A stretch of 64,000 nucleotides of DNA from Sedimentisphaerales bacterium (lineage in GTDB: Bacteria > Planctomycetota > Phycisphaerae > Sedimentisphaerales > SM23-30), in NCBI GenBank assembly GCA_963666285.1, contig OY762711.1; one strand, 5' to 3'. Positions 1,212-56,332 of this stretch are shown here, piece after piece. Position 1 is the first letter of the stretch. Each line of letters starts with the position of its first letter. A program made the translations under genes and the position numbers. Below the pieces are notes generated by a model. That model had not been told where the DNA came from and searched no databases. It saw only the letters and a list, made by a program, of their open reading frames with translations.

Positions 1212-1239
1212 ATTATAGCATTCTTATGGATTATGTCAA
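1212..1239 (-). promoter_or_regulatory. sigma70-type promoter of tRNA-Glu
   Basis: TTGACA-N16-TATAAT, with TGn extension, about 20 nt upstream of the tRNA. Confidence 0.8.
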
Positions 1240-10159: not shown

Positions 10160-10457
10160 GATATGGCCTCCGCAATTATATTTCTATATCGATATGATAT
10201 TTGAGTACCGTCATATAAGACATTTTACATTTAGTAAAACGCTAAAAATTCAGATAGAATTTCATTGATTCTATAAAATTATATCATATCTAAGAAATAA
10301 AGTCAATTTTAGCTATATTTACATTTTTTTGTAAGTTCATATATAGAACAATTTTACAGACTGCTTGTTTAGCAGTTACACATAGGTAATGCTGAAACAA
10401 TTTTAAGTTTGATATCCTACTAATAATGTCGGCAAATGGGGTAGGGAGTTTACTTGT

Positions 10458-16853: not shown

Positions 16854-16881
16854 TTGACGTATCAGTACAATTTAGTATAAA
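16854..16881 (+). promoter_or_regulatory. sigma70-type promoter about 1.18 kb upstream of the giant protein gene
   Basis: TTGACG-N16-TATAAA with AT-rich upstream tract. Confidence 0.65.
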
Positions 16882-27245: not shown

Positions 27246-27273
27246 TTGACATTTTGGGATTTTGGAGTATAAT
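27246..27273 (+). promoter_or_regulatory. sigma70-type promoter of folC
   Basis: TTGACA-N16-TATAAT. Confidence 0.75.
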
Positions 27274-44829: not shown

Positions 44830-45002
44830 AATCCCAAGGTTCTTAAAAGTGTAGGCAAATACTTCAAATCTGCCAATTTGGCGCAATTATAAGCGATTAA
44901 TTGTTTTTTGTCAAATCTGCAATACCGTATATTTCAGTATTATGGGGGATAATGTTGATATAAAGAGATTTTTATAAATTTTGATGCCAATCGCATTTTT
45001 TC

Positions 45003-45030
45003 TTGTCGTTTGGAATTAAAGTGATATAAT
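45003..45030 (+). promoter_or_regulatory. sigma70-type promoter upstream of the CTGA-rich leader
   Basis: TTGTCG-N16-TATAAT. Confidence 0.55.
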
Positions 45031-47278: not shown

Positions 47279-47452
47279 GAACCCATCCCAAAATCTTTTT
47301 TTGCATTGATTGGCTGCATTCACCCTGCCCTTCGTTGATCGGCAAAAAACAATCTCGACGTATAATAATACGCCTGCGATAGTTTTTGGCCTCCGCCTCG
47401 GCCATGAATAAATTCGCTCAATCCTGCATTAAAACATATTTTGGACGAGTTC
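47279..47452. repeat. Imperfect palindromic element (REP/MITE-like)
   Basis: GAACCCATCCCAAAAT...ATTTTGGACGAGTTC ends; inner arms GCAAAAAACAATC/GATAGTTTTTGGC; central GACGTAT-AATA-ATACGCC. Confidence 0.65.
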
Positions 47453-47831
47453 AAATAACTTACATCAGTCCCAATCGGGCAGCCTCAATTATTAACCCTT
47501 CCTGAAACTCCTATATGCCGGATCTCCTTACCCGGTGACAATTAATACCCAGATTCCGAATTTGTTAAAAAGTTCAAACTGACTCGTGGCCAGTTGAAAG
47601 TTATTTTTAAGTATTTGGTATCAGGCAAGGATAGCCGTAAAGCGGCAGGCCTGTTTAATATAAAAGATTGTCTTAAAATATATTACAACAATATAAAGAG
47701 ACTAATCAATCATACTAAATTAAGCAAATACCTTTCAAGCTGTGAAACTCAAGTTGCCTTAAACATCCACAAATTATCGTATCCGGTCGGGATGTTATTA
47801 TCAAGTAAAAATTGAAATTAGTTGGCAGGTA
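47362..47831. repeat. ~470-bp direct repeat, copy 1 (left of CRISPR-Cas)
   Basis: Matches 54287-54755 with about 3 substitutions and 1 indel seen by eye. Confidence 0.95.
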
Positions 47832-48111: not shown

Positions 48112-48140
48112 AAAATACACCAATAATTTGAACGTGTCAA
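48112..48140 (-). promoter_or_regulatory. tracrRNA promoter
   Basis: TTGACA-N17-TATTTT ending 6 nt before the anti-repeat. Confidence 0.7.
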
Positions 48141-48159: not shown

Positions 48160-51100
48160 ATGGTGAAATATGTTTTAGGACTTGATTTAGGGCCAACATC
48201 TATTGGATGGGCAGCAATTGCTATTGATGAAAATGGCAATTTTTTAGGTTTTCTGAAAATTTCAGATTCTAAAGATGGTTTGCATTGGATTCCAGCTATT
48301 AATTCGAGAATATTTCCGATGCCATATGTAGAAAAAACTTATTGTGCTGGAAATAAAGAAACAACCAGAAATAAAAACAGAAGAGATGCTAGAGGGGCCA
48401 AAAGAAGATATCAAAGACGGTCTCAAAGGTTGAATGAAACTTATTGCTTTTTACATGAAAGAAATATTCTTCCAGAAAGAAATGAATATGAGAAATTACT
48501 TTCTTTGGATCCTTTTGAAATAAGAGCAAAGGCTTTAGAGGAAAGAATAGATTTACATCATGTAGGAAGAGCAATAATGCATATAGCAAAAAGGAGGGGT
48601 TTTAAGTCAAATAGTAAATTAGGTGGATTGATAGACGTTGATACAGACAATAAGAGAAAGAAAAAAGATAAATCCAAGATAACTCTTTTAAATACATACG
48701 AAGGAAAAACAATTGGGCAAATATGTTATGAGAAACATAAGGATGATATCTGTACTGCTGTAAGGAATAAAGGTGAAATGAATATATGGCAAAGGAAAGA
48801 CTATATTGATGAAGTATGTCGTATATGGAAATGTCAACAACAGTATTATCCAACAATTCTTACGGACGATGTATTAGAGGATTTAGTATCAGAAGATGGA
48901 AGTAAATGGTTATTATTCAGTCAGCATAGTTATAAATTGTCAGCAAGAAAGCAAAGGAAGTATATTGGAAAATGTTCACTATGGAAAGAAAAGCTAAGAT
49001 GTGATAAAAGTAAGAGAGTTGCACAAGAATTTGTGCTTCTTCAAACAATTAACTACTTAGAAATATATGATTCTTACGGTTCAAAAATTGAATGCGGCGT
49101 TTCAAAAGAAGATAAGCAAAAAATATTAGAATATATATCTTCCTTTGAGAAAGGCAAAAAGTATTCACAAATTAAAAAACATTTAGGATATCCAGAAGAT
49201 TGGAGATTTAATTTTGAGGATGTAGAAGAAGATAATAGTTTGCCAGGAATTGCAGTAGATGATCTGATAAGAGTTATATTTGGCGAAAGGAAGGGCAATA
49301 AGTATGTGCAGATTGTTGATTATAGTGATAGAGAAGCTGTTTGGGAAATTGTGCTTTTATATATTGATGAAGAGATATCATACAATGAATTACGAAAGCA
49401 AATGGTTAAATTTGATGTTGAGGTTCCAGACGAAGATATATTGAATGCTAAACTAAGTAAAGCAAAAGTACCTGATGGACATGTCAAGTATTGTGAAGAA
49501 ATAGTTAAAATTCTTAATGCCGAAATGCTAAAGGGTATAAACTTGCATGAAGCAAAACAGAGAGTTTGCAAACGTTTAGGGCTAAAAAATAATAGCAGAG
49601 TATTGTCCAAATTACCAATACCTGATAGGGCACATGGTTTTGAAACTACTAATCCAAATGTCAAAGTGGTTTTACATGAAGTTAGAAAGATAGTAAATCA
49701 ATTAATAAAAGAGTTTGGCAAACCAGAGAGGATTATGATTGAGTGCGGAAGGTCGATTAAAGCAAATAAAAAACAAAGAGAGGTAATAAAGAAAAAACAA
49801 AAGGATAATAATACATTGAAAAAAAGTGTTAGGGAGATATTTGATGTAAATGATCAAATACCAGCTTTTATTAAATGTAATAAGCCAGGATGGGCAATTA
49901 AAAGATATATATTATGGCAACAGCAAAAAGGTATGTGTCCGTACTTAGATTCCAGTAAAAAACAAATTCCATTATCAAAACTATTTAGTTCAGAAGTGGA
50001 AATAGACCATATTATTCCTCGTGAAATATCATTTGATAATTCATTAAATAACCAGGTAGTATGTTATACGAATGAAAACAGAAATAAGGGACTTAACACA
50101 CCTATTAGCTGGTTAAAGGAAACAAATCCGGAAAAGTGGGTAAATACACAGAATGCGATAAAGCATTGGAAAGAACTGACTAAGCGGGAAAAAATTACTA
50201 TTGATGGTGAAGAAATTACGTTGGAGCCAAATAGGAATAAATGGGAACGTTTTTTTGTAAATAATAAAGATGTGCACAATAAATACAGCCCTAAAAATCT
50301 CCTGAATGACAATTCATACATTGCAAATGAAGTAAAAAAGTATTTACTGAGATTATATCCTTCTGAAAATCAACAGGGTAGACAAAATGTTGACACAACA
50401 AAAGGTATGATCACCAGTGAGCTAAGAAAAATATGGGGAGTTAATAGTATATTGCGTAAAGATGATATTGATCAAAAGAATAGAGGTGACCATAGGCATC
50501 ATGCAATAGATGCAGCTATTTGTGCTGTTACTACTCATTCTGAAATTCAAAAAATAACGCGAGAGTTGCAACAAGCGTTTCCTGAAACGGATTATGGGAA
50601 AATAAAAATTAGTAAACCTTGGTCTGGTTTTGAAAGAGATTTAAAAGAAGTGATTGATTCTATAAATGTTTCGCATCGGCCAAGACGGCAAGTTCGAGGA
50701 TCATTGCACGGAGATAGCTTTTGGGCAAAAGATTCAAATGGAAAATTTGTGCAAAGAAAAAAAGTGAAAGATGCTAATGTGAGTACTGTTTGTGATGAAA
50801 AGGTTAGAGATCTTATAAAGAAATGGAAGGAATCTAATCAAAGTGAATATCCTATGCTGCCAAATAATAATCATAATGTAAATAATGGAGAACCAATTCC
50901 AGTTAAGAAAGTTAAATGTTATTCTGGGAAAAATGAAAATCAATTTATTGAAATCAGGCCAGGAAAGTATGTTGAAAAGCCTGAAAATCATCATGTCGAG
51001 TTATTTGAACTTGAAGAAAATGGATCAACTCAAATAATTGCAAAAATATGGAATACTTATGAAGTATCAAAAAGAATAGCGAATGCAAACCGCAAGTATA

Positions 51101-51435
51101 ATAAACTTGCTAAGAGTGGGGAAAAGTTAAATATGACTAACTGTATAGTTATCCGTGAGCATCCAGAATATTCAGAAGCAACATTTAAGTTTTCATTTTC
51201 AAAAGGGGATATTATTCAAATGGATAGTAAAAAAGGAGGAAGGGCTTATTATAGAGCCGTTAGTATTGGCGAAAATGATTATTGGTTTTGGGAATTGCAT
51301 ATTGCATCAAATGAAAAACCTAAAGCAGATGATTTAGATGGGCATAGGCTGAGAAGCCCCAATAAATTCTTAGAATTGAATGCTAAAAAGGTTACGGTTG
51401 CCCCATTGGGTCGTGTACGGTGGGCAAATGATTAA
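48160..51435 (+). CDS. cas9: Type II-C Cas9 (about 1091 aa)
   Basis: RuvC-I GLDLG, Arg-rich bridge helix, HIAKRRGF, RuvC-II IMIECGR, HNH EIDHIIP..N..NRNK, RuvC-III HHAIDA. Confidence 0.96.
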   Translation: MVKYVLGLDLGPTSIGWAAIAIDENGNFLGFLKISDSKDGLHWIPAINSRIFPMPYVEKTYCAGNKETTRNKNRRDARGAKRRYQRRSQRLNETYCFLHERNILPERNEYEKLLSLDPFEIRAKALEERIDLHHVGRAIMHIAKRRGFKSNSKLGGLIDVDTDNKRKKKDKSKITLLNTYEGKTIGQICYEKHKDDICTAVRNKGEMNIWQRKDYIDEVCRIWKCQQQYYPTILTDDVLEDLVSEDGSKWLLFSQHSYKLSARKQRKYIGKCSLWKEKLRCDKSKRVAQEFVLLQTINYLEIYDSYGSKIECGVSKEDKQKILEYISSFEKGKKYSQIKKHLGYPEDWRFNFEDVEEDNSLPGIAVDDLIRVIFGERKGNKYVQIVDYSDREAVWEIVLLYIDEEISYNELRKQMVKFDVEVPDEDILNAKLSKAKVPDGHVKYCEEIVKILNAEMLKGINLHEAKQRVCKRLGLKNNSRVLSKLPIPDRAHGFETTNPNVKVVLHEVRKIVNQLIKEFGKPERIMIECGRSIKANKKQREVIKKKQKDNNTLKKSVREIFDVNDQIPAFIKCNKPGWAIKRYILWQQQKGMCPYLDSSKKQIPLSKLFSSEVEIDHIIPREISFDNSLNNQVVCYTNENRNKGLNTPISWLKETNPEKWVNTQNAIKHWKELTKREKITIDGEEITLEPNRNKWERFFVNNKDVHNKYSPKNLLNDNSYIANEVKKYLLRLYPSENQQGRQNVDTTKGMITSELRKIWGVNSILRKDDIDQKNRGDHRHHAIDAAICAVTTHSEIQKITRELQQAFPETDYGKIKISKPWSGFERDLKEVIDSINVSHRPRRQVRGSLHGDSFWAKDSNGKFVQRKKVKDANVSTVCDEKVRDLIKKWKESNQSEYPMLPNNNHNVNNGEPIPVKKVKCYSGKNENQFIEIRPGKYVEKPENHHVELFELEENGSTQIIAKIWNTYEVSKRIANANRKYNKLAKSGEKLNMTNCIVIREHPEYSEATFKFSFSKGDIIQMDSKKGGRAYYRAVSIGENDYWFWELHIASNEKPKADDLDGHRLRSPNKFLELNAKKVTVAPLGRVRWAND

Positions 51436-52330
51436 GCGGATAATCGAGGTTTCTCAGGCGAAGACATATTTATCGGTTAAAAATAGCCAATTGTTAATAC
51501 GCCGAGATGATGAGCAGATAGGTCAGATACCATGCGAAGATATAGGTATGCTGATAGTAGATCATCCTGGTGTGATATATACACACTGCGTGTTTACTGA
51601 ACTGGTTAAAGCAGGTGCTGCGGTTGTGCTGTGCGGAGCAGACCATCATCCGGCGGGAGTGTTTATGCCGGTAGAGTCTAACAGCGTGCAGACCGAGCGT
51701 ATGCGTGGGCAGCTGCTGGCGAAAGAGCCTATAAAGAAGCAGATGTGGAAGCAACTGGTGCAGTCAAAGATCCGGCATCAGGCAGAAGTGCTGGGTAAAG
51801 ATTGTCGTGCGTATGAGGGATTGCAGGAGATGGCAAATGCGGTGAAGAGCGGTGACCCGGAGAATAAGGAAGCGCAGGCGAGTAAACTGTACTGGAAATA
51901 TTTTGGTGATGAAATGGAGTTCAAAAGGCATCGGTACGGTAAGAGTCCTAACAATATGCTGAATTATGGATATGCAATTGTTCGTGCGGCTGTTGCCAGG
52001 GCAATCGTAGCGGCTGGTTTGAACCCATCAATTGGTGTGCATCACTGCAACAAGTATAATGCATTTTGCCTGGCGGATGATTTGCTGGAGGCCTTCAGGG
52101 GATTTGTGGATAGAAGGGTTCTTGAAATATGGTCGGAATTGTCTGGGGGTGAAGGCGAAGTTGAATTGGATCAGGAGATAAAGGCAAAGCTGCTTGAAAT
52201 ATTATATGATGAAGTAGAGCTGGGGCAGTATTCCGGACCGATGATGGTTGGTATGCACAGAATGGCGGCATCAGTAGTGAAGTGTTTTGCCGGGGAAAGT
52301 AAAAATCTGGATTTGCCGAAAATCTGTTAA
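51428..52330 (+). CDS. cas1: CRISPR integrase Cas1 (type II)
   Basis: IPCEDIG, EAQASKLYW, NNMLNYGYAIVR, GVHH, NAFCLADDLLEAFR; ATG overlaps the cas9 end. Confidence 0.96.
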   Translation: MIKRIIEVSQAKTYLSVKNSQLLIRRDDEQIGQIPCEDIGMLIVDHPGVIYTHCVFTELVKAGAAVVLCGADHHPAGVFMPVESNSVQTERMRGQLLAKEPIKKQMWKQLVQSKIRHQAEVLGKDCRAYEGLQEMANAVKSGDPENKEAQASKLYWKYFGDEMEFKRHRYGKSPNNMLNYGYAIVRAAVARAIVAAGLNPSIGVHHCNKYNAFCLADDLLEAFRGFVDRRVLEIWSELSGGEGEVELDQEIKAKLLEILYDEVELGQYSGPMMVGMHRMAASVVKCFAGESKNLDLPKIC

Positions 52331-52398: not shown

Positions 52399-52728
52399 AT
52401 GGATATCAGCGGGTATAGAGTAGTGTGGATACTGGCAATGTTTGACCTGCCGACCGATACGAAGCAGGCAATAAAAGATTATACGCAATTTCGTAAAAGT
52501 CTTTTAAAAGACGGGTTTTCTATGATACAATATTCTGTATATATCAGACATTGTGCCAGTGAGGAAAACGCAGATGTTCATTTTGAACGAGTTAAAAAAT
52601 TTTTGCCTCCGGATGGCGAAGTGCGGCTGCTTTGTATTACCGATAAGCAGTATGGTCGCATGGAAACCTATTGGGGGCGGCGTAGAAAACCGACGCCTCC
52701 GGCACCAAAACAGCTCGAACTTTTCTGA
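52399..52728 (+). CDS. cas2: Cas2
   Basis: WILAMFDLPT, FRKSLLKDGFSMIQYSVY, ITDKQY, QLELF. Confidence 0.96.
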   Translation: MDISGYRVVWILAMFDLPTDTKQAIKDYTQFRKSLLKDGFSMIQYSVYIRHCASEENADVHFERVKKFLPPDGEVRLLCITDKQYGRMETYWGRRRKPTPPAPKQLELF

Positions 52729-52784
52729 TTTTTTTGCCGAATCTTTTTGTAAGTCTGTGTTTGACAGTAGGTTGGAAAATATGT

Positions 52785-54205
52785 AGTGTAATCAATCCTA
52801 GCCTGTTGTCAATCCACAACTTGACAGATCTTTGCTGCTGGTGATGGGGTAGTGTAATCAATCCTAGCCTGTTGTCAATCCACAACAGGTGTCTGCGTTT
52901 AGCTGGTCGATCTTGTAGTGTAATCAATCCTAGCCTGTTGTCAATCCACAACAGCTCAAGCCTTGTAAGTTTGCTAGTTCTTAGTGTAATCAATCCTAGC
53001 CTGTTGTCAATCCACAACTAATATGAGTGCTTATGCAATTCTGTCAAAGTGTAATCAATCCTAGCCTGTTGTCAATCCACAACAATTTATTTTCACTCCA
53101 CTTATCGTCCCAGAGTGTAATCAATCCTAGCCTGTTGTCAATCCACAACATAAGCAGATAATGGATGAGCGTTGGGAGTAGTGTAATCAATCCTAGCCTG
53201 TTGTCAATCCACAACATCTTATTGTTTCTCCTGGTCCGGCTTTTCAGTGTAATCAATCCTAGCCTGTTGTCAATCCACAACACAACTTTATAATTGTTGT
53301 AAGTGCAGCCCAGTGTAATCAATCCTAGCCTGTTGTCAATCCACAACCTCTTGTCTGAACTATCTCATCAATGGAAAAGTGTAATCAATCCTAGCCTGTT
53401 GTCAATCCACAACACATTCCTTCAGGGGAAGCGATTCAAATAAAGTGTAATCAATCCTAGCCTGTTGTCAATCCACAACCCCGCCCTGGTTAATGTATTT
53501 GCTCGGGCAAGTGTAATCAATCCTAGCCTGTTGTCAATCCACAACCATTTCCCTTATCTACTAAAACAGTACTGAAGTGTAATCAATCCTAGCCTGTTGT
53601 CAATCCACAACTGGATGTCTTCAACTCATGTCGGATTCTGGAGTGTAATCAATCCTAGCCTGTTGTCAATCCACAACGGTGTTTCAGAGTTCTTTAATCG
53701 TTAATCGAGTGTAATCAATCCTAGCCTGTTGTCAATCCACAACTTTATCATGGCAGTATGTTCGTTTTGATTAAGTGTAATCAATCCTAGCCTGTTGTCA
53801 ATCCACAACAAGTTTCGGGTCGGAGTTATTCACTCTTTTAGTGTAATCAATCCTAGCCTGTTGTCAATCCACAACCAAGGGCAAAGTAAGATGTGGCGAG
53901 CGTTCAGTGTAATCAATCCTAGCCTGTTGTCAATCCACAACGTCGGTGTCGGTAAAACTTATGCCCGTTGTAGTGTAATCAATCCTAGCCTGTTGTCAAT
54001 CCACAACATCGCCTTGCCGGGTTATGTCTACCTATCAAGTGTAATCAATCCTAGCCTGTTGTCAATCCACAACCACGCTCACTGCCGCGAACAGCTGTTT
54101 GGAGTGTAATCAATCCTAGCCTGTTGTCAATCCACAACTATCCTTGACTTGAACGGTAATACAGTTGGAGTGTAATCAATCCTAGCCTGTTGTCAATCCA
54201 CTGAC
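52785..54205 (-). CRISPR. CRISPR array: 22 repeats of 36 bp (last one degenerate), 21 spacers of 29-30 bp
   Basis: Repeat GTTGTGGATTGACAACAGGCTAGGATTGATTACACT on the minus strand; orientation set by tracrRNA complementarity; no csn2 or cas4, so type II-C. Confidence 0.98.
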
Positions 54206-54286: not shown

Positions 54287-54755
54287 ATAATAATACGCCT
54301 GCGATAGTTTTTGGCCTCCGCCTCGGCCATGAATAAATTCGCTCAATCCTGCATTAAAACATATTTTGGACGAGTTCAAATAACTTACATCAGTCCCAAT
54401 CGGGCAGCCTCAATTATTAACCCTTCCTGAAACTCCTATATGCCGGATCTCCTTACCCGGTGACAATTAATACCCAGATTCCGAATTTGTAAAAAGCTCA
54501 AACTGACTCGTGGCCAGTTGAAAGTTATTTTTAAGTATTTGGTATCGGGCAAGGATAGCCGCAAAGCGGCAGGCCTGTTTAATATAAAAGATTGTCTTAA
54601 AATATATTACAACAATATAAAGAGACTAATCAATCATACTAAATTAAGCAAATACCTTTCAAGCTGTGAAACTCAAGTTGCCTTAAACATCCACAAATTA
54701 TCGTATCCGGTCGGGATGTTATTATCAAGTAAAAATTGAAATTAGTTGGCAGGTA
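54287..54755. repeat. ~470-bp direct repeat, copy 2 (right of array)
   Basis: Near-identical to 47362-47831. Confidence 0.95.
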
Positions 54756-54803
54756 GAAAATGGTTCTCCAGAAGACTCTAAAAAGAGGTGAAGGAGAACC
54801 AAA

Positions 54804-55177
54804 ATGAAAGACAGGCAAACCCAAAACCATGTTAAATGGGAATGAAAGTATCATGTGTTAATAGTACCAAAATATCGTAAGAAGATAGGCGAGATAATTC
54901 GAGAATTATGTCGCCAAAAGGATATCGAATTATTAGAAGGCAATGCAGGTGTGGATCATATTCATATGTTGCATAGTATTCCACCTGGGTACAGTATTGC
55001 CATGACAATGGGATCTTTGAAGGGCAAAAGTGCTATTCGCATAAACAGGAAGCTTGTCTGTTTGGTAGAAGCTTTTGATCCCTAGGATATTGTGTAAGAA
55101 CGGTTGGTCTTGATGAGGATATAATACGAAAATATATCCAGGATCAGGAACAGCAAGAACGTGATGAAGATAAATAG
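54804..55177 (+). pseudogene. tnpA: IS200/IS605-family TnpA (Y1 transposase) pseudogene
   Basis: HVKWE*KYHVLIVPKYRKK, DHIHML (HUH motif), KGKSAI, then a frameshifted GYCVRTVGLDEDIIRKYIQDQE. Confidence 0.88.
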
Positions 55178-55190
55178 AGGTATCCAAATT

Positions 55191-55868
55191 CTAGGGTTCT
55201 TCCTCGGACCTCCTGCTATGCAGAAGGCGTGGTTGATTTGTCTTTGAAATAGGCTCTATTATCTCATCAGGAAATTCATGAATCGCTTTATTAAGCAGAT
55301 TATCTAATTTTTCTTCAAGGGCTCTTGGAAGTAAAAAAAATGTTTCACGTTTTTGCTCAAACGTAACAAAAGAGTACCTGTTAAGATATTTATCCATATT
55401 ATCGTTATGTTTGTATTCAACAAATAGCAAAACATTGGTATTTGTTGAATAAATATACACATCTTCAACTACGGGTTTTATGATGATTATTCCCATTTTG
55501 GAATCATATTCTCCATGTATAGTCCGTGCAAGTACTGGAATATTAGGATCGAATTCCTCATCCTTATTTTTATCGAATTCAATTATTTCATTTCCCATAA
55601 AAATGGTACTGCCTTTAGGTGGACAAATATGTTCGAAGTTACTTAAATTAGTATTGTTAGTAGATGTATAAAATACATCCACTATACCTTCATGAAAAAG
55701 TTTCCCTTCAAAACCAAATTGATTTAAGATACTGTCAACTTCTTCTTTGGGTAATCCATTTTTCAGCAGCAAATTATTATCATAAAATAAATGAGATTCA
55801 GTAGTATTTTCAGAAATACAACCTGAAAAGAAAATTAGAAACAATAAATATATTATCAAATTCTTCAT
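55191..55868 (-). CDS. Hypothetical lipoprotein
   Basis: MKNLIIYLLFLIFFSGC lipobox; AT-rich. Confidence 0.8.
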   Translation of the reverse strand: MKNLIIYLLFLIFFSGCISENTTESHLFYDNNLLLKNGLPKEEVDSILNQFGFEGKLFHEGIVDVFYTSTNNTNLSNFEHICPPKGSTIFMGNEIIEFDKNKDEEFDPNIPVLARTIHGEYDSKMGIIIIKPVVEDVYIYSTNTNVLLFVEYKHNDNMDKYLNRYSFVTFEQKRETFFLLPRALEEKLDNLLNKAIHEFPDEIIEPISKTNQPRLLHSRRSEEEP

Positions 55869-55879
55869 AAGTATATATA

Positions 55880-55916
55880 AGTGTAATCAATCCCAGCCTG
55901 TTGTCAATCCACGAAC
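55880..55916 (-). CRISPR. Orphan degenerate CRISPR repeat
   Basis: AGTGTAATCAATCCCAGCCTGTTGTCAATCCACGAAC: one substitution and one insertion versus the consensus; flank resembles the array flank at 54205-54250. Confidence 0.92.
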
Positions 55917-56332
55917 AGCAGTGATCGGCTTTGAGTATTGAGATGCCAGGAATAAATAAGCAAGGAGCAGTGGTGAAATCATATTATAACTATCACAGGG
56001 GTAAATGAGGCATAATTATATAGATTGTGATTAGCTATCGGACCATTATGGTATGAAGTTTATTGCCAGAAAGCATATATAATTGATAATAGCATATAAA
56101 ATATTGATCGTGTGAAATGGAAATATGGATTGTGGAAAAATATTTTTTTGTAAGTTGTTGTTAGTAATAGTCTTACTGGCAAGTTGTGTTGTTTGTCGTA
56201 ATGTTGATGATAAATCGCAAATCTGGCAAAAAAATGAGATTATTAATGAAAAAGTGTATATGTTTTTGGTACGATAATAGTACTTGAATCAAAGCAGTCA
56301 TGAATATACAAAGTAAAGGTGTGAAACTAGAG

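What the first reader, a model, noticed from the sequence alone, without database searches (positions are those of the whole stretch)
52785..54205. Every CRISPR repeat contains a complete -35/-10 promoter with the host's spacing
Seen: the repeat parses as GTTGTGGA-TTGACA-N16-TACACT, with the -10 box at its 3' end. Four other predicted promoters in this window (1212-1239, 16854-16881, 27246-27273, 45003-45030) also have 16-nt spacers. Established: Neisseria type II-C repeats carry extended -10 promoters that start crRNAs inside each spacer. Inference: here a consensus -35 is also embedded, so each crRNA would be transcribed independently, starting about 6 nt into the spacer (guides of about 24 nt).
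Basis: partly seen in the sequence, partly recalled or inferred. Interest (0 to 1): 0.7.

Follow-up and report, generated by a model that had tools for sequence, protein, structure and literature searches.

The report
Two-box promoter inside Cas9 CRISPR repeats

Summary
Observation confirmed. All 22 repeats read (minus strand) 8 nt + TTGACA + 16 nt + TACACT, with no extended -10; 203 of 200,000 shuffles score as well. The locus is an ordinary type II-C system: cas9-cas1-cas2, an antisense array, a tracrRNA, and spacers resembling a resident prophage. The layout is a family trait: 87 of 111 distinct 36-nt repeats with a terminal -10 have TTG 16-17 nt upstream; only 10 have the full TTGACA. TTG also sits at position 9 in 42 of 50 long, Bacteroidota-type repeats, mostly without such a -10, and it lies in the crRNA:tracrRNA bulge, so it may be kept for RNA or protein reasons. 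Best reading (0.62): each repeat is a sigma70 -35/-10 promoter that sets crRNA 5' ends about 6-7 nt into the spacer, with 3' ends from tracrRNA/RNase III. No RNA data were available. Repeat promoters are published, and this scan noted them before on other DNA. An orphan repeat directly upstream of a lipoprotein-like gene may be a co-opted promoter.

The parts
52785..54204 (-). CRISPR array, 22 x 36-nt repeats and 21 spacers; predicted to be transcribed toward cas2; each repeat carries TTGACA-16-TACACT
52807..52812 (-). -35-like TTGACA in the leader-side repeat (repeat positions 9-14; same place in every repeat); falls in the predicted crRNA:tracrRNA internal loop
52785..52790 (-). -10-like TACACT in the leader-side repeat (positions 31-36; same place in every repeat); no TGn extension
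54169..54204 (-). Outer (oldest, 'extra') repeat: positions 1-3 changed, weakening the tracrRNA lower stem; both promoter boxes intact
52729..52784 (.). Leader between cas2 and the newest repeat (inferred spacer-acquisition end)
   Evidence: II-C polarity as described in PMC12080349
47977..48105 (-). Predicted tracrRNA: anti-repeat 48105-48070, then AAG/nexus, hairpins and a terminator (stem 48005-47985 plus U-run)
48112..48140 (-). Predicted tracrRNA promoter TTGACA-17-TATTTT; its -10 ends 6 nt before the first base of the anti-repeat
48160..51435 (+). cas9 (1091 aa from the ATG), with RuvC and HNH domains
   Evidence: (TIGR01865, 508 bits, cut-off 100)
51428..52330 (+). cas1, NMENI (type II) family
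   Evidence: TIGR03639, 249 bits, cut-off 120
52399..52728 (+). cas2; no csn2 or cas4 ORF between it and the array
55880..55915 (-). Orphan repeat copy, both boxes intact, 1 change in positions 4-36; its -10 ends 11 nt before the ATG of the next gene; about 65 nt of upstream flank is homologous to the flank of the outer repeat
55191..55868 (-). 225-aa ORF with a lipoprotein-like N-terminus (lipobox recognised by eye), no Pfam, NCBIfam or PHROG hit; candidate client of the orphan repeat promoter
47362..47831 (+). Left copy of a 470-bp direct repeat (99.1% identical) flanking the whole CRISPR-cas cassette
54287..54755 (+). Right copy of the 470-bp direct repeat; holds weak minus-strand promoter-like sites and a terminator-like hairpin (54519-54501) upstream of the array
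54760..55240 (+). Broken IS200/IS605-type tnpA remnant (HUH motif visible in translation; about 70% identical to longer copies elsewhere in the genome; family name from recalled motifs)

Best explanation
This is a type II-C CRISPR-Cas9 array in which each 36-nt repeat contains TTGACA-16 nt-TACACT and likely acts as a housekeeping (sigma70) promoter, probably using the -35 box in place of the extended -10 of Neisseria and Campylobacter. Shown by sequence: the motif in all 22 repeats, the cas9-cas1-cas2 operon on the opposite strand, and a tracrRNA gene complementary to the minus-strand repeat. Inferred steps: (1) RpoD-RNA polymerase binds each repeat and starts about 6-7 nt into the next spacer, giving 23-25-nt guides without 5' trimming. 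(2) Transcripts run on toward the leader as nested precursors. (3) tracrRNA pairs with repeat positions 1-8 and 15-36, and RNase III makes the 3' ends. (4) The -35 occupies the internal loop of that duplex, so the same letters serve as a DNA signal and as the guide-RNA bulge. (5) The outer repeat has lost part of its lower stem but keeps both boxes, so it would work as a promoter only. What matters in the family is TTG at 16-17 nt from the -10; the full TTGACA is this lineage's better-than-usual match.
For: Motif in 22 of 22 repeats, rare by chance. The host has an RpoD above the family cut-off with a canonical-looking region 4.2 helix-turn-helix (motif meaning recalled), uses TTGAC-16/17-TAnnnT promoters and has RNase III. 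In the host's order, 48 of 48 distinct 36-nt repeats have TTG at 16 nt (45) or 17 nt (3) from the last hexamer, 47 have TAnnnT there, and only 7 have TGn. Across all groups sampled, 87 of 111 distinct 36-nt repeats with a terminal TAnnnT have TTG at 16-17 nt; TGn is in 12 of 87 with TTG and 9 of 24 without (Fisher p=0.016, kin not independent). A separate Cas1 lineage (about 36% identical; L041, L293, L306) has TTGAC[AG] one base further 5', with 17-nt spacing. The repeat keeps TT at 9-10 whether the tracrRNA opposes it with UU (49 of 57), AA (6) or other bases (2), so base pairing does not explain it. Degenerate outer repeats keep TTG in 13 of 21 sigma70-type arrays against 7 of 21 long Bacteroidota-type arrays, where decay often runs on to positions 20-24. 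The orphan repeat keeps both boxes 11 nt before an ATG while its flank has diverged by about 25%. Precedent: repeat promoters in C. jejuni (PMC3656092) and N. meningitidis (PMC5965381; start at the 6th spacer base, PMC12477760).
Against: There is no transcript evidence for this locus. TTG at position 9 is also in 42 of 50 distinct 46/47-nt repeats, only 6 of which have TAnnnT 16-17 nt downstream, so TTG is ancestral and may be kept for Cas9 or Cas1-Cas2 recognition; the tracrRNA side of the loop is conserved too (UU in 49 of 57). A 36-nt repeat with an 8-bp lower stem and a terminal -10 gives 16-nt spacing by geometry alone. Positions 12-14 are not generally driven to ACA: TTGACA occurs in 10 of 87, TTGCAC in 16, TTGCTC in 14. 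The outer-repeat contrast is not significant (p=0.12), and 8 of 21 degenerate outer repeats lose TTG while keeping the -10. 15 of 111 repeats have neither TTG nor TGn. TACACT is a rare -10 in this host, and 16 nt is the minority spacing. 1549 spacers show no purine or YR bias at positions 6-8.
Confidence: 0.62

Rival explanations
1. The repeats fire from the -10 box, but TTG at 9-11 is kept because Cas9 (tandem U.U loop beside the lower stem) or Cas1-Cas2 reads it. The -35 look and the 16-nt spacing are by-products of a 36-nt repeat, and ACA is drift.
For: TTG at position 9 in 42 of 50 long Bacteroidota-type repeats, mostly without a sigma70 -10. Conserved UU on the tracrRNA side. [quoted passage not shown] No family-wide pull toward ACA. 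Repeats with neither TTG nor TGn exist.
Against: A 4-of-6 -10 without TGn usually needs a -35 (general knowledge). TGn tends to be absent where TTG is present. A second lineage has TTGAC at 17 nt. Outer repeats that lose the lower stem more often keep TTG than not.
Confidence: 0.23
2. The array is read as one long precursor from an outside promoter upstream of the outer repeat (for example in the 470-bp element); crRNA 5' ends come from trimming and the repeat motif is silent.
For: Promoter-like sites on the minus strand at 54662-54633 and 54728-54700. TACACT is rare as a host -10. No spacer start bias.
Against: A terminator-like hairpin at 54519-54501 lies between those sites and the array. 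The same sites occur in the left copy of the duplication, far from the array. A terminal TAnnnT is kept in 111 of 121 distinct 36-nt repeats. The array polarity (leader at the 3' end) is that of systems with proven repeat promoters (PMC12080349).
Confidence: 0.1

Closest known systems
Neisseria meningitidis type II-C CRISPR-Cas9 (Zhang et al. 2013, seen only as summarised in PMC5965381, PMC7038990 and PMC12477760)
   Same: cas9-cas1-cas2 only; 36-nt repeats and 30-nt spacers; -10 box at the repeat 3' end; crRNA start about 6 nt into the spacer; new spacers at the 3' end of the transcript.
   Different: Neisseria-type repeats have an extended -10 (TGn) and, in the similar repeat sampled here (L367), no TTG at position 9. 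This repeat has no TGn, a weaker -10 (TACACT) and a consensus TTGACA 16 nt upstream.
Campylobacter jejuni 'minimal' type II-C CRISPR (Dugar et al. 2013, PMC3656092; passages read)
   Same: Individual promoters in the upstream repeat, a -10 box in its 3' part, tracrRNA/RNase III processing of 3' ends.
   Different: C. jejuni promoters lack a clear -35 and use an extended -10 genome-wide; this host uses canonical -35/-10 promoters.
Flavobacterium columnare and F. psychrophilum type II-C arrays (PMC8092290, PMC10309648; passages read)
   Same: A TTG inside the repeat was proposed as the upstream promoter element; in the 46-nt F. psychrophilum repeat it is said to lie 35 bp before the spacer, which by my arithmetic is about the same position 9-11.
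   Different: Those proposals concern the Bacteroidota -33 element, were not tested by mutation in the passages read, and have no sigma70 -10 partner. Here TTGACA pairs with a TAnnnT box at 16 nt.
Mutated 'extra' repeat of II-C arrays (Feussner et al. 2025, PMC12080349; first 10,000 characters and passages read)
   Same: The oldest repeat is changed at its 5' end, weakening tracrRNA pairing while it must stay a promoter.
   Different: That paper reports mutations across the first 15 nt and, in the passages read, does not discuss a -35; here the changes stop at position 3.

Membership tests
Type II-C CRISPR-Cas9 | cas9, cas1, cas2 with no csn2 or cas4 | tested here: met
   TIGR01865, TIGR03639 and TIGR01573 over cut-off; cas2 is followed by a 56-nt leader and the array
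Type II-C CRISPR-Cas9 | tracrRNA with an anti-repeat pairing to the repeat, nexus and terminator | tested here: met
   duplex energy -42.3; positions 1-8, 11 and 15-36 paired
Type II-C CRISPR-Cas9 | Host RNase III for 3' processing | tested here: met
   TIGR02191, 210.9 bits, over cut-off
Type II-C CRISPR-Cas9 | Array read toward the leader; oldest, degenerate repeat at the transcript 5' end | tested here: met
   the direction set by tracrRNA pairing puts the degenerate repeat first; inferred from sequence, not from RNA
Type II-D (Cas9d) | Cas9d model over its cut-off | tested here: not met
   NF049971, 127.9 bits, cut-off 375
Neisseria/Campylobacter repeat-embedded promoter | -10 box at the 3' end of each repeat | tested here: met
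   TACACT in 22 of 22 repeats
Neisseria/Campylobacter repeat-embedded promoter | Extended -10 (TGn) | tested here: not met
   (TG_before_second: no)
Neisseria/Campylobacter repeat-embedded promoter | Primary (5'-triphosphate) crRNA ends inside each spacer | not testable with these tools
   no RNA holder listed
sigma70 -35/-10 promoter of this host | TTG(ACA) and TAnnnT at a spacing the host uses | tested here: met
   excess of sites at 16 and 17 nt over other spacings; 17 nt commoner
sigma70 -35/-10 promoter of this host | The -35 is under selection as a promoter element rather than as an RNA or protein contact | tested here: inconclusive
   p=0.12; p=0.016, kin not independent
scaRNA-type regulatory solo repeat (orphan at 55880-55915) | Upstream pseudo-guide with a PAM-flanked seed match at the cas promoter | tested here: not met
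   no exact seed match of 9 nt or more within the locus other than itself

The most novel reading that the evidence does not exclude
A large clade of type II-C repeats (Planctomycetota, some Pseudomonadota and Sumerlaeota) encodes a full sigma70 -35/-10 promoter, with the -35 placed in the Cas9 guide bulge. The tandem U.U mismatch lets the repeat keep TTG while the anti-repeat in the tracrRNA gene drops it (45 of 49 anti-repeats that keep the -10 lack the TTG), which avoids an antisense promoter in the tracrRNA gene. The repeat is thereby a portable promoter, and here a stray copy has been co-opted to drive a lipoprotein-like gene.
Probability: 0.2. Interest if true: 0.55.

Novelty: new variant of a known kind. 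Interest (0 to 1): 0.3.

Why it matters
If the -35 is used, repeat-embedded promoters are not tied to the extended -10 of Neisseria and Campylobacter: II-C repeats would come in at least two promoter designs. Part of the sequence conservation in the Cas9 guide bulge would then be a DNA-level constraint, free to change in engineered guides. It also gives a simple rule for orienting these arrays and predicts that they should express in E. coli. The biology of immunity is unchanged, so the gain is modest.

Tried and rejected
RNA data: no RNA holder listed; three contig-only runs from one study, possibly the source of the genome. A promoter weight matrix trained by EM drifted to a G+C-rich, uninformative motif (sense and antisense scored alike), so all scores were discarded and replaced by consensus counts. 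A first locus scan with Cas9 alone found no relatives. The first ungapped anti-repeat search was noisy and its output was cut; it was replaced by a two-stem search. Spacer start-site bias: none in 1549 spacers from sigma70-type arrays or in 1069 from long-repeat arrays. Phage targets: a 19-nt part of the newest spacer hit one viral contig, but the rest did not match, and a longer pattern hit none; the other 20 spacers were not searched in viral contigs. scaRNA-like targeting by the outer or orphan repeat: no local seed match. The lipoprotein-like ORF was not found with this query in 4 related genomes, with one weak paralog in the host. The Zhang 2013 paper was not held under the id tried. Literature searches for a -35 box in II-C repeats gave no paper that states it for sigma70 hosts; most subscription papers and all supplements were outside what I saw, so this is not proof of absence. 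Rejected: '16 nt is the host spacing'; 'TTGACA is under family-wide selection for all six letters'.

Full report
Observation. The array has 22 repeats from 52785 to 54204, 21 of them identical, and 21 spacers of 29-30 nt. On the minus strand each repeat is 8 nt, TTGACA, 16 nt, TACACT; the promoter scan lists all 22 and a 23rd copy at 55880-55915. There is no TG extension. A site this good arises in 203 of 200,000 shuffles of the repeat and in 219 of 100,000 random genomic 36-mers. 321 of 2958 upstream regions of the host have a site of at least this score, against 101 on the antisense strand.

Context. The array follows cas9 (TIGR01865), cas1 (TIGR03639) and cas2 with no csn2 or cas4, so it is type II-C. 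An anti-repeat at 48105-48070 on the minus strand is followed by AAG, hairpins and a U-tailed terminator, and preceded by TTGACA-17-TATTTT. It pairs with the minus-strand repeat at positions 1-8, 11 and 15-36; positions 9-10 face U (U.U) and 12-14 are unpaired. The -35 hexamer therefore coincides with the internal loop of the guide duplex. This fixes the crRNA direction as toward cas2, with the degenerate repeat first, which is the II-C layout described in PMC12080349. The host encodes RNase III and an RpoD over the family cut-off. The closest named Cas1 relatives are mostly Sedimentisphaerales, so the host is probably of that order (inference). Spacers 1, 4 and 6, counted from the leader, match G000:C1 at 5.28-5.31 Mb with 3, 7 and 6 mismatches; these are 3 of the 5 hits with at most 7 mismatches among 21 spacers. 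That region encodes a major head protein, portal, terminase and transposase, so it is a transposable prophage. Their 3' flanks share C at position 5 (CC at 5-6 in two), a weak hint of an N4CC-like PAM on the expected side.

Host spacing. The four cited promoters have 16-nt spacers, but the window also holds a perfect 17-nt site at 44914 and an 11-of-12 site at 10306. Genome-wide, upstream sites with at least 11 of 12 matches are 28 at 16 nt and 57 at 17 nt; with at least 10 of 12, 92 and 171, over a background of 31-54; perfect sites are 8 and 7 (gene calls by a crude ORF script). Of 56 tRNA/tmRNA genes, 23 have a strong site, 10 at 16 nt and 13 at 17 nt. TACACT follows a TTG-type -35 only 2 times against 54 for TATAAT. 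So the motif fits the host's promoter grammar but is neither its commonest spacing nor its best -10.

Survey of relatives. I collected II-C loci from the host's order and phylum, from Cas1 scans of genomes and metagenomes (the best 80 of about 600 each) and from two other phyla reached through handles. Loci without a detectable array were dropped, as were six II-A-looking arrays and one cut repeat. Of 121 distinct 36-nt repeats, 111 end in TAnnnT; 79 of these have TTG at position 9 (16 nt) and 8 at position 8 (17 nt). In the host's order all 48 distinct repeats have TTG at 16 nt (45) or 17 nt (3). The full TTGACA occurs in 10 of 87, and TTGAC appears at several places on the Cas1 tree, including a lineage of about 36% identity with 17-nt spacing. 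A degenerate pattern of this repeat type matched 17 of 401 genomes of the order. TGn is in 12 of 87 repeats with TTG and 9 of 24 without (p=0.016, not corrected for kinship); 15 have neither.

Is TTG a -35 or a structural handle? Against a -35: 42 of 50 distinct 46/47-nt repeats (Bacteroidota where named) also have TTG at position 9, and only 6 of these have TAnnnT at 16-17 nt; the tracrRNA side of the loop is UU in 49 of 57 cases; and 16 nt follows from repeat geometry. For a -35: the repeat keeps TT whether paired (6 of 57) or not, and degenerate outer repeats behave differently in the two groups. Among arrays whose outer end was visible (69 of 102 sigma70-type loci, 31 of 45 long-repeat loci; Bacteroidota assigned by record title or resemblance), 21 in each group had two or more changes. 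TTG survived in 13 and 7 of them (p=0.12). Decay boundaries were at position 11 or less in 15 and at 20-27 in 6 for the first group, but at 14-28 in 14 of 21 for the second. This leans toward promoter use but does not prove it; 8 of 21 outer repeats lose TTG and keep the -10. Spacer composition shows no start-site bias.

Orphan repeat. A copy of the outer repeat with about 65 nt of its flank lies at 55880-55981, its -10 ending 11 nt before the ATG of a 225-aa lipoprotein-like ORF. The flank is about 75% identical, while repeat positions 4-36 differ at one base (binomial p about 6e-4). Selection as a promoter is one reading. Gene conversion from the 22 array copies is another, since the non-box positions are kept as well. 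No scaRNA-like target was found.

Mechanism. The most likely reading (0.62) is that each repeat is a sigma70 promoter that uses TTG(ACA) instead of TGn and starts RNA about 6-7 nt into the spacer. That distance is inferred from usual -10 to +1 spacing, from the tracrRNA promoter here, and from 'the 6th nt of each spacer' reported for Neisseria (PMC12477760). Only 5' ends would be independent: no terminator-like site was listed within the array, so transcripts would be nested and 3' ends made by tracrRNA/RNase III. The leader-side repeat would fire into the leader, antisense to cas2, where a terminator-like hairpin lies at 52708-52690. Rivals: a -10-only promoter with TTG kept for Cas9 or Cas1-Cas2 (0.23); a single outside promoter (0.10).

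What is known. Repeat promoters are established for C. jejuni (PMC3656092, passages) and N. meningitidis (PMC5965381, passages), and an extended -10 was noted for C. cellulolyticum (PMC7038990, passages). A Defluviimonas array fragment gave crRNAs with 24-25-nt spacer parts in E. coli (PMC7708072, passages). A TTG in the repeat was proposed as a promoter element in Flavobacterium (PMC8092290; PMC10309648; passages). I also saw passages of PMC4911918, PMC10281378 and PMC6546382. My searches found no paper stating a sigma70 -35/-10 pair in II-C repeats; the Zhang 2013 text and all supplements were not seen and could contain it. This scan has noted repeat-embedded -10 boxes in several other genomes.

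Verdict. A real motif in an ordinary II-C locus; a new variant of a known design. Interest 0.3.

Noticed in passing
window 47362-47831 and 54287-54755: The whole tracr-cas9-cas1-cas2-array cassette is flanked by 470-bp direct repeats (99.1%), so it could be gained or lost by recombination. One contig of run X3 joins the two flanks, skipping 6924 bp; this may be an empty allele or an assembly join across the repeat.
   Followed up: partly
window 47563-47721 (inside the 470-bp repeat): A non-coding element of up to about 160 bp has several dozen partial 67-100% matches across the chromosome; nature unknown.
   Followed up: no
G000:C1:5275001-5315000 (L273, L274): Transposable prophage (terminase, portal, head, transposase) imperfectly matched by spacers 1, 4 and 6, suggesting recent immunity to a related phage.
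   Followed up: partly
window 55880-55981 and 55191-55868: Orphan repeat with both promoter boxes directly upstream of an unannotated lipoprotein-like gene, beside a broken IS200-type element.
   Followed up: partly
L353 (G463:C1:13595-13627): The outermost repeat of an array belongs to this window's repeat type (TTGACA/16), while the next repeat is of the other lineage (TTGACA/17): an old promoter repeat left in place after the system was replaced.
   Followed up: no
L344 (G008:C9:13566-13598): Single intact repeat of this type in a genome where no cas9 match was found (85% complete).
   Followed up: no
46/47-nt repeat loci, e.g. L131, L152, L162, L180: Outer repeats of long Bacteroidota-type arrays often decay up to position 22-24, stopping just before a TAnnTTTG-like motif. 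This suggests that motif, not the TTG at position 9 proposed in print, is their repeat promoter.
   Followed up: partly
G000 contigs C2, C3, C4: Three contigs of about 65 kb that are 75-95% alike over long stretches and unlike C1; possibly related plasmids or phages. No spacer matched them.
   Followed up: no
G000:C1:5226832-5229866: Cluster of 9 tRNA genes on one strand, about 45 kb from the prophage genes; may belong to a mobile element.
   Followed up: no
window 53020-53047 and 53267-53294: Two spacer-dependent promoter-like sites: TTGACA at the start of spacer 4 with a weak -10 (minus strand), and an 11-of-12 plus-strand site spanning a repeat and spacer 8 that could give antisense RNA.
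   Followed up: no
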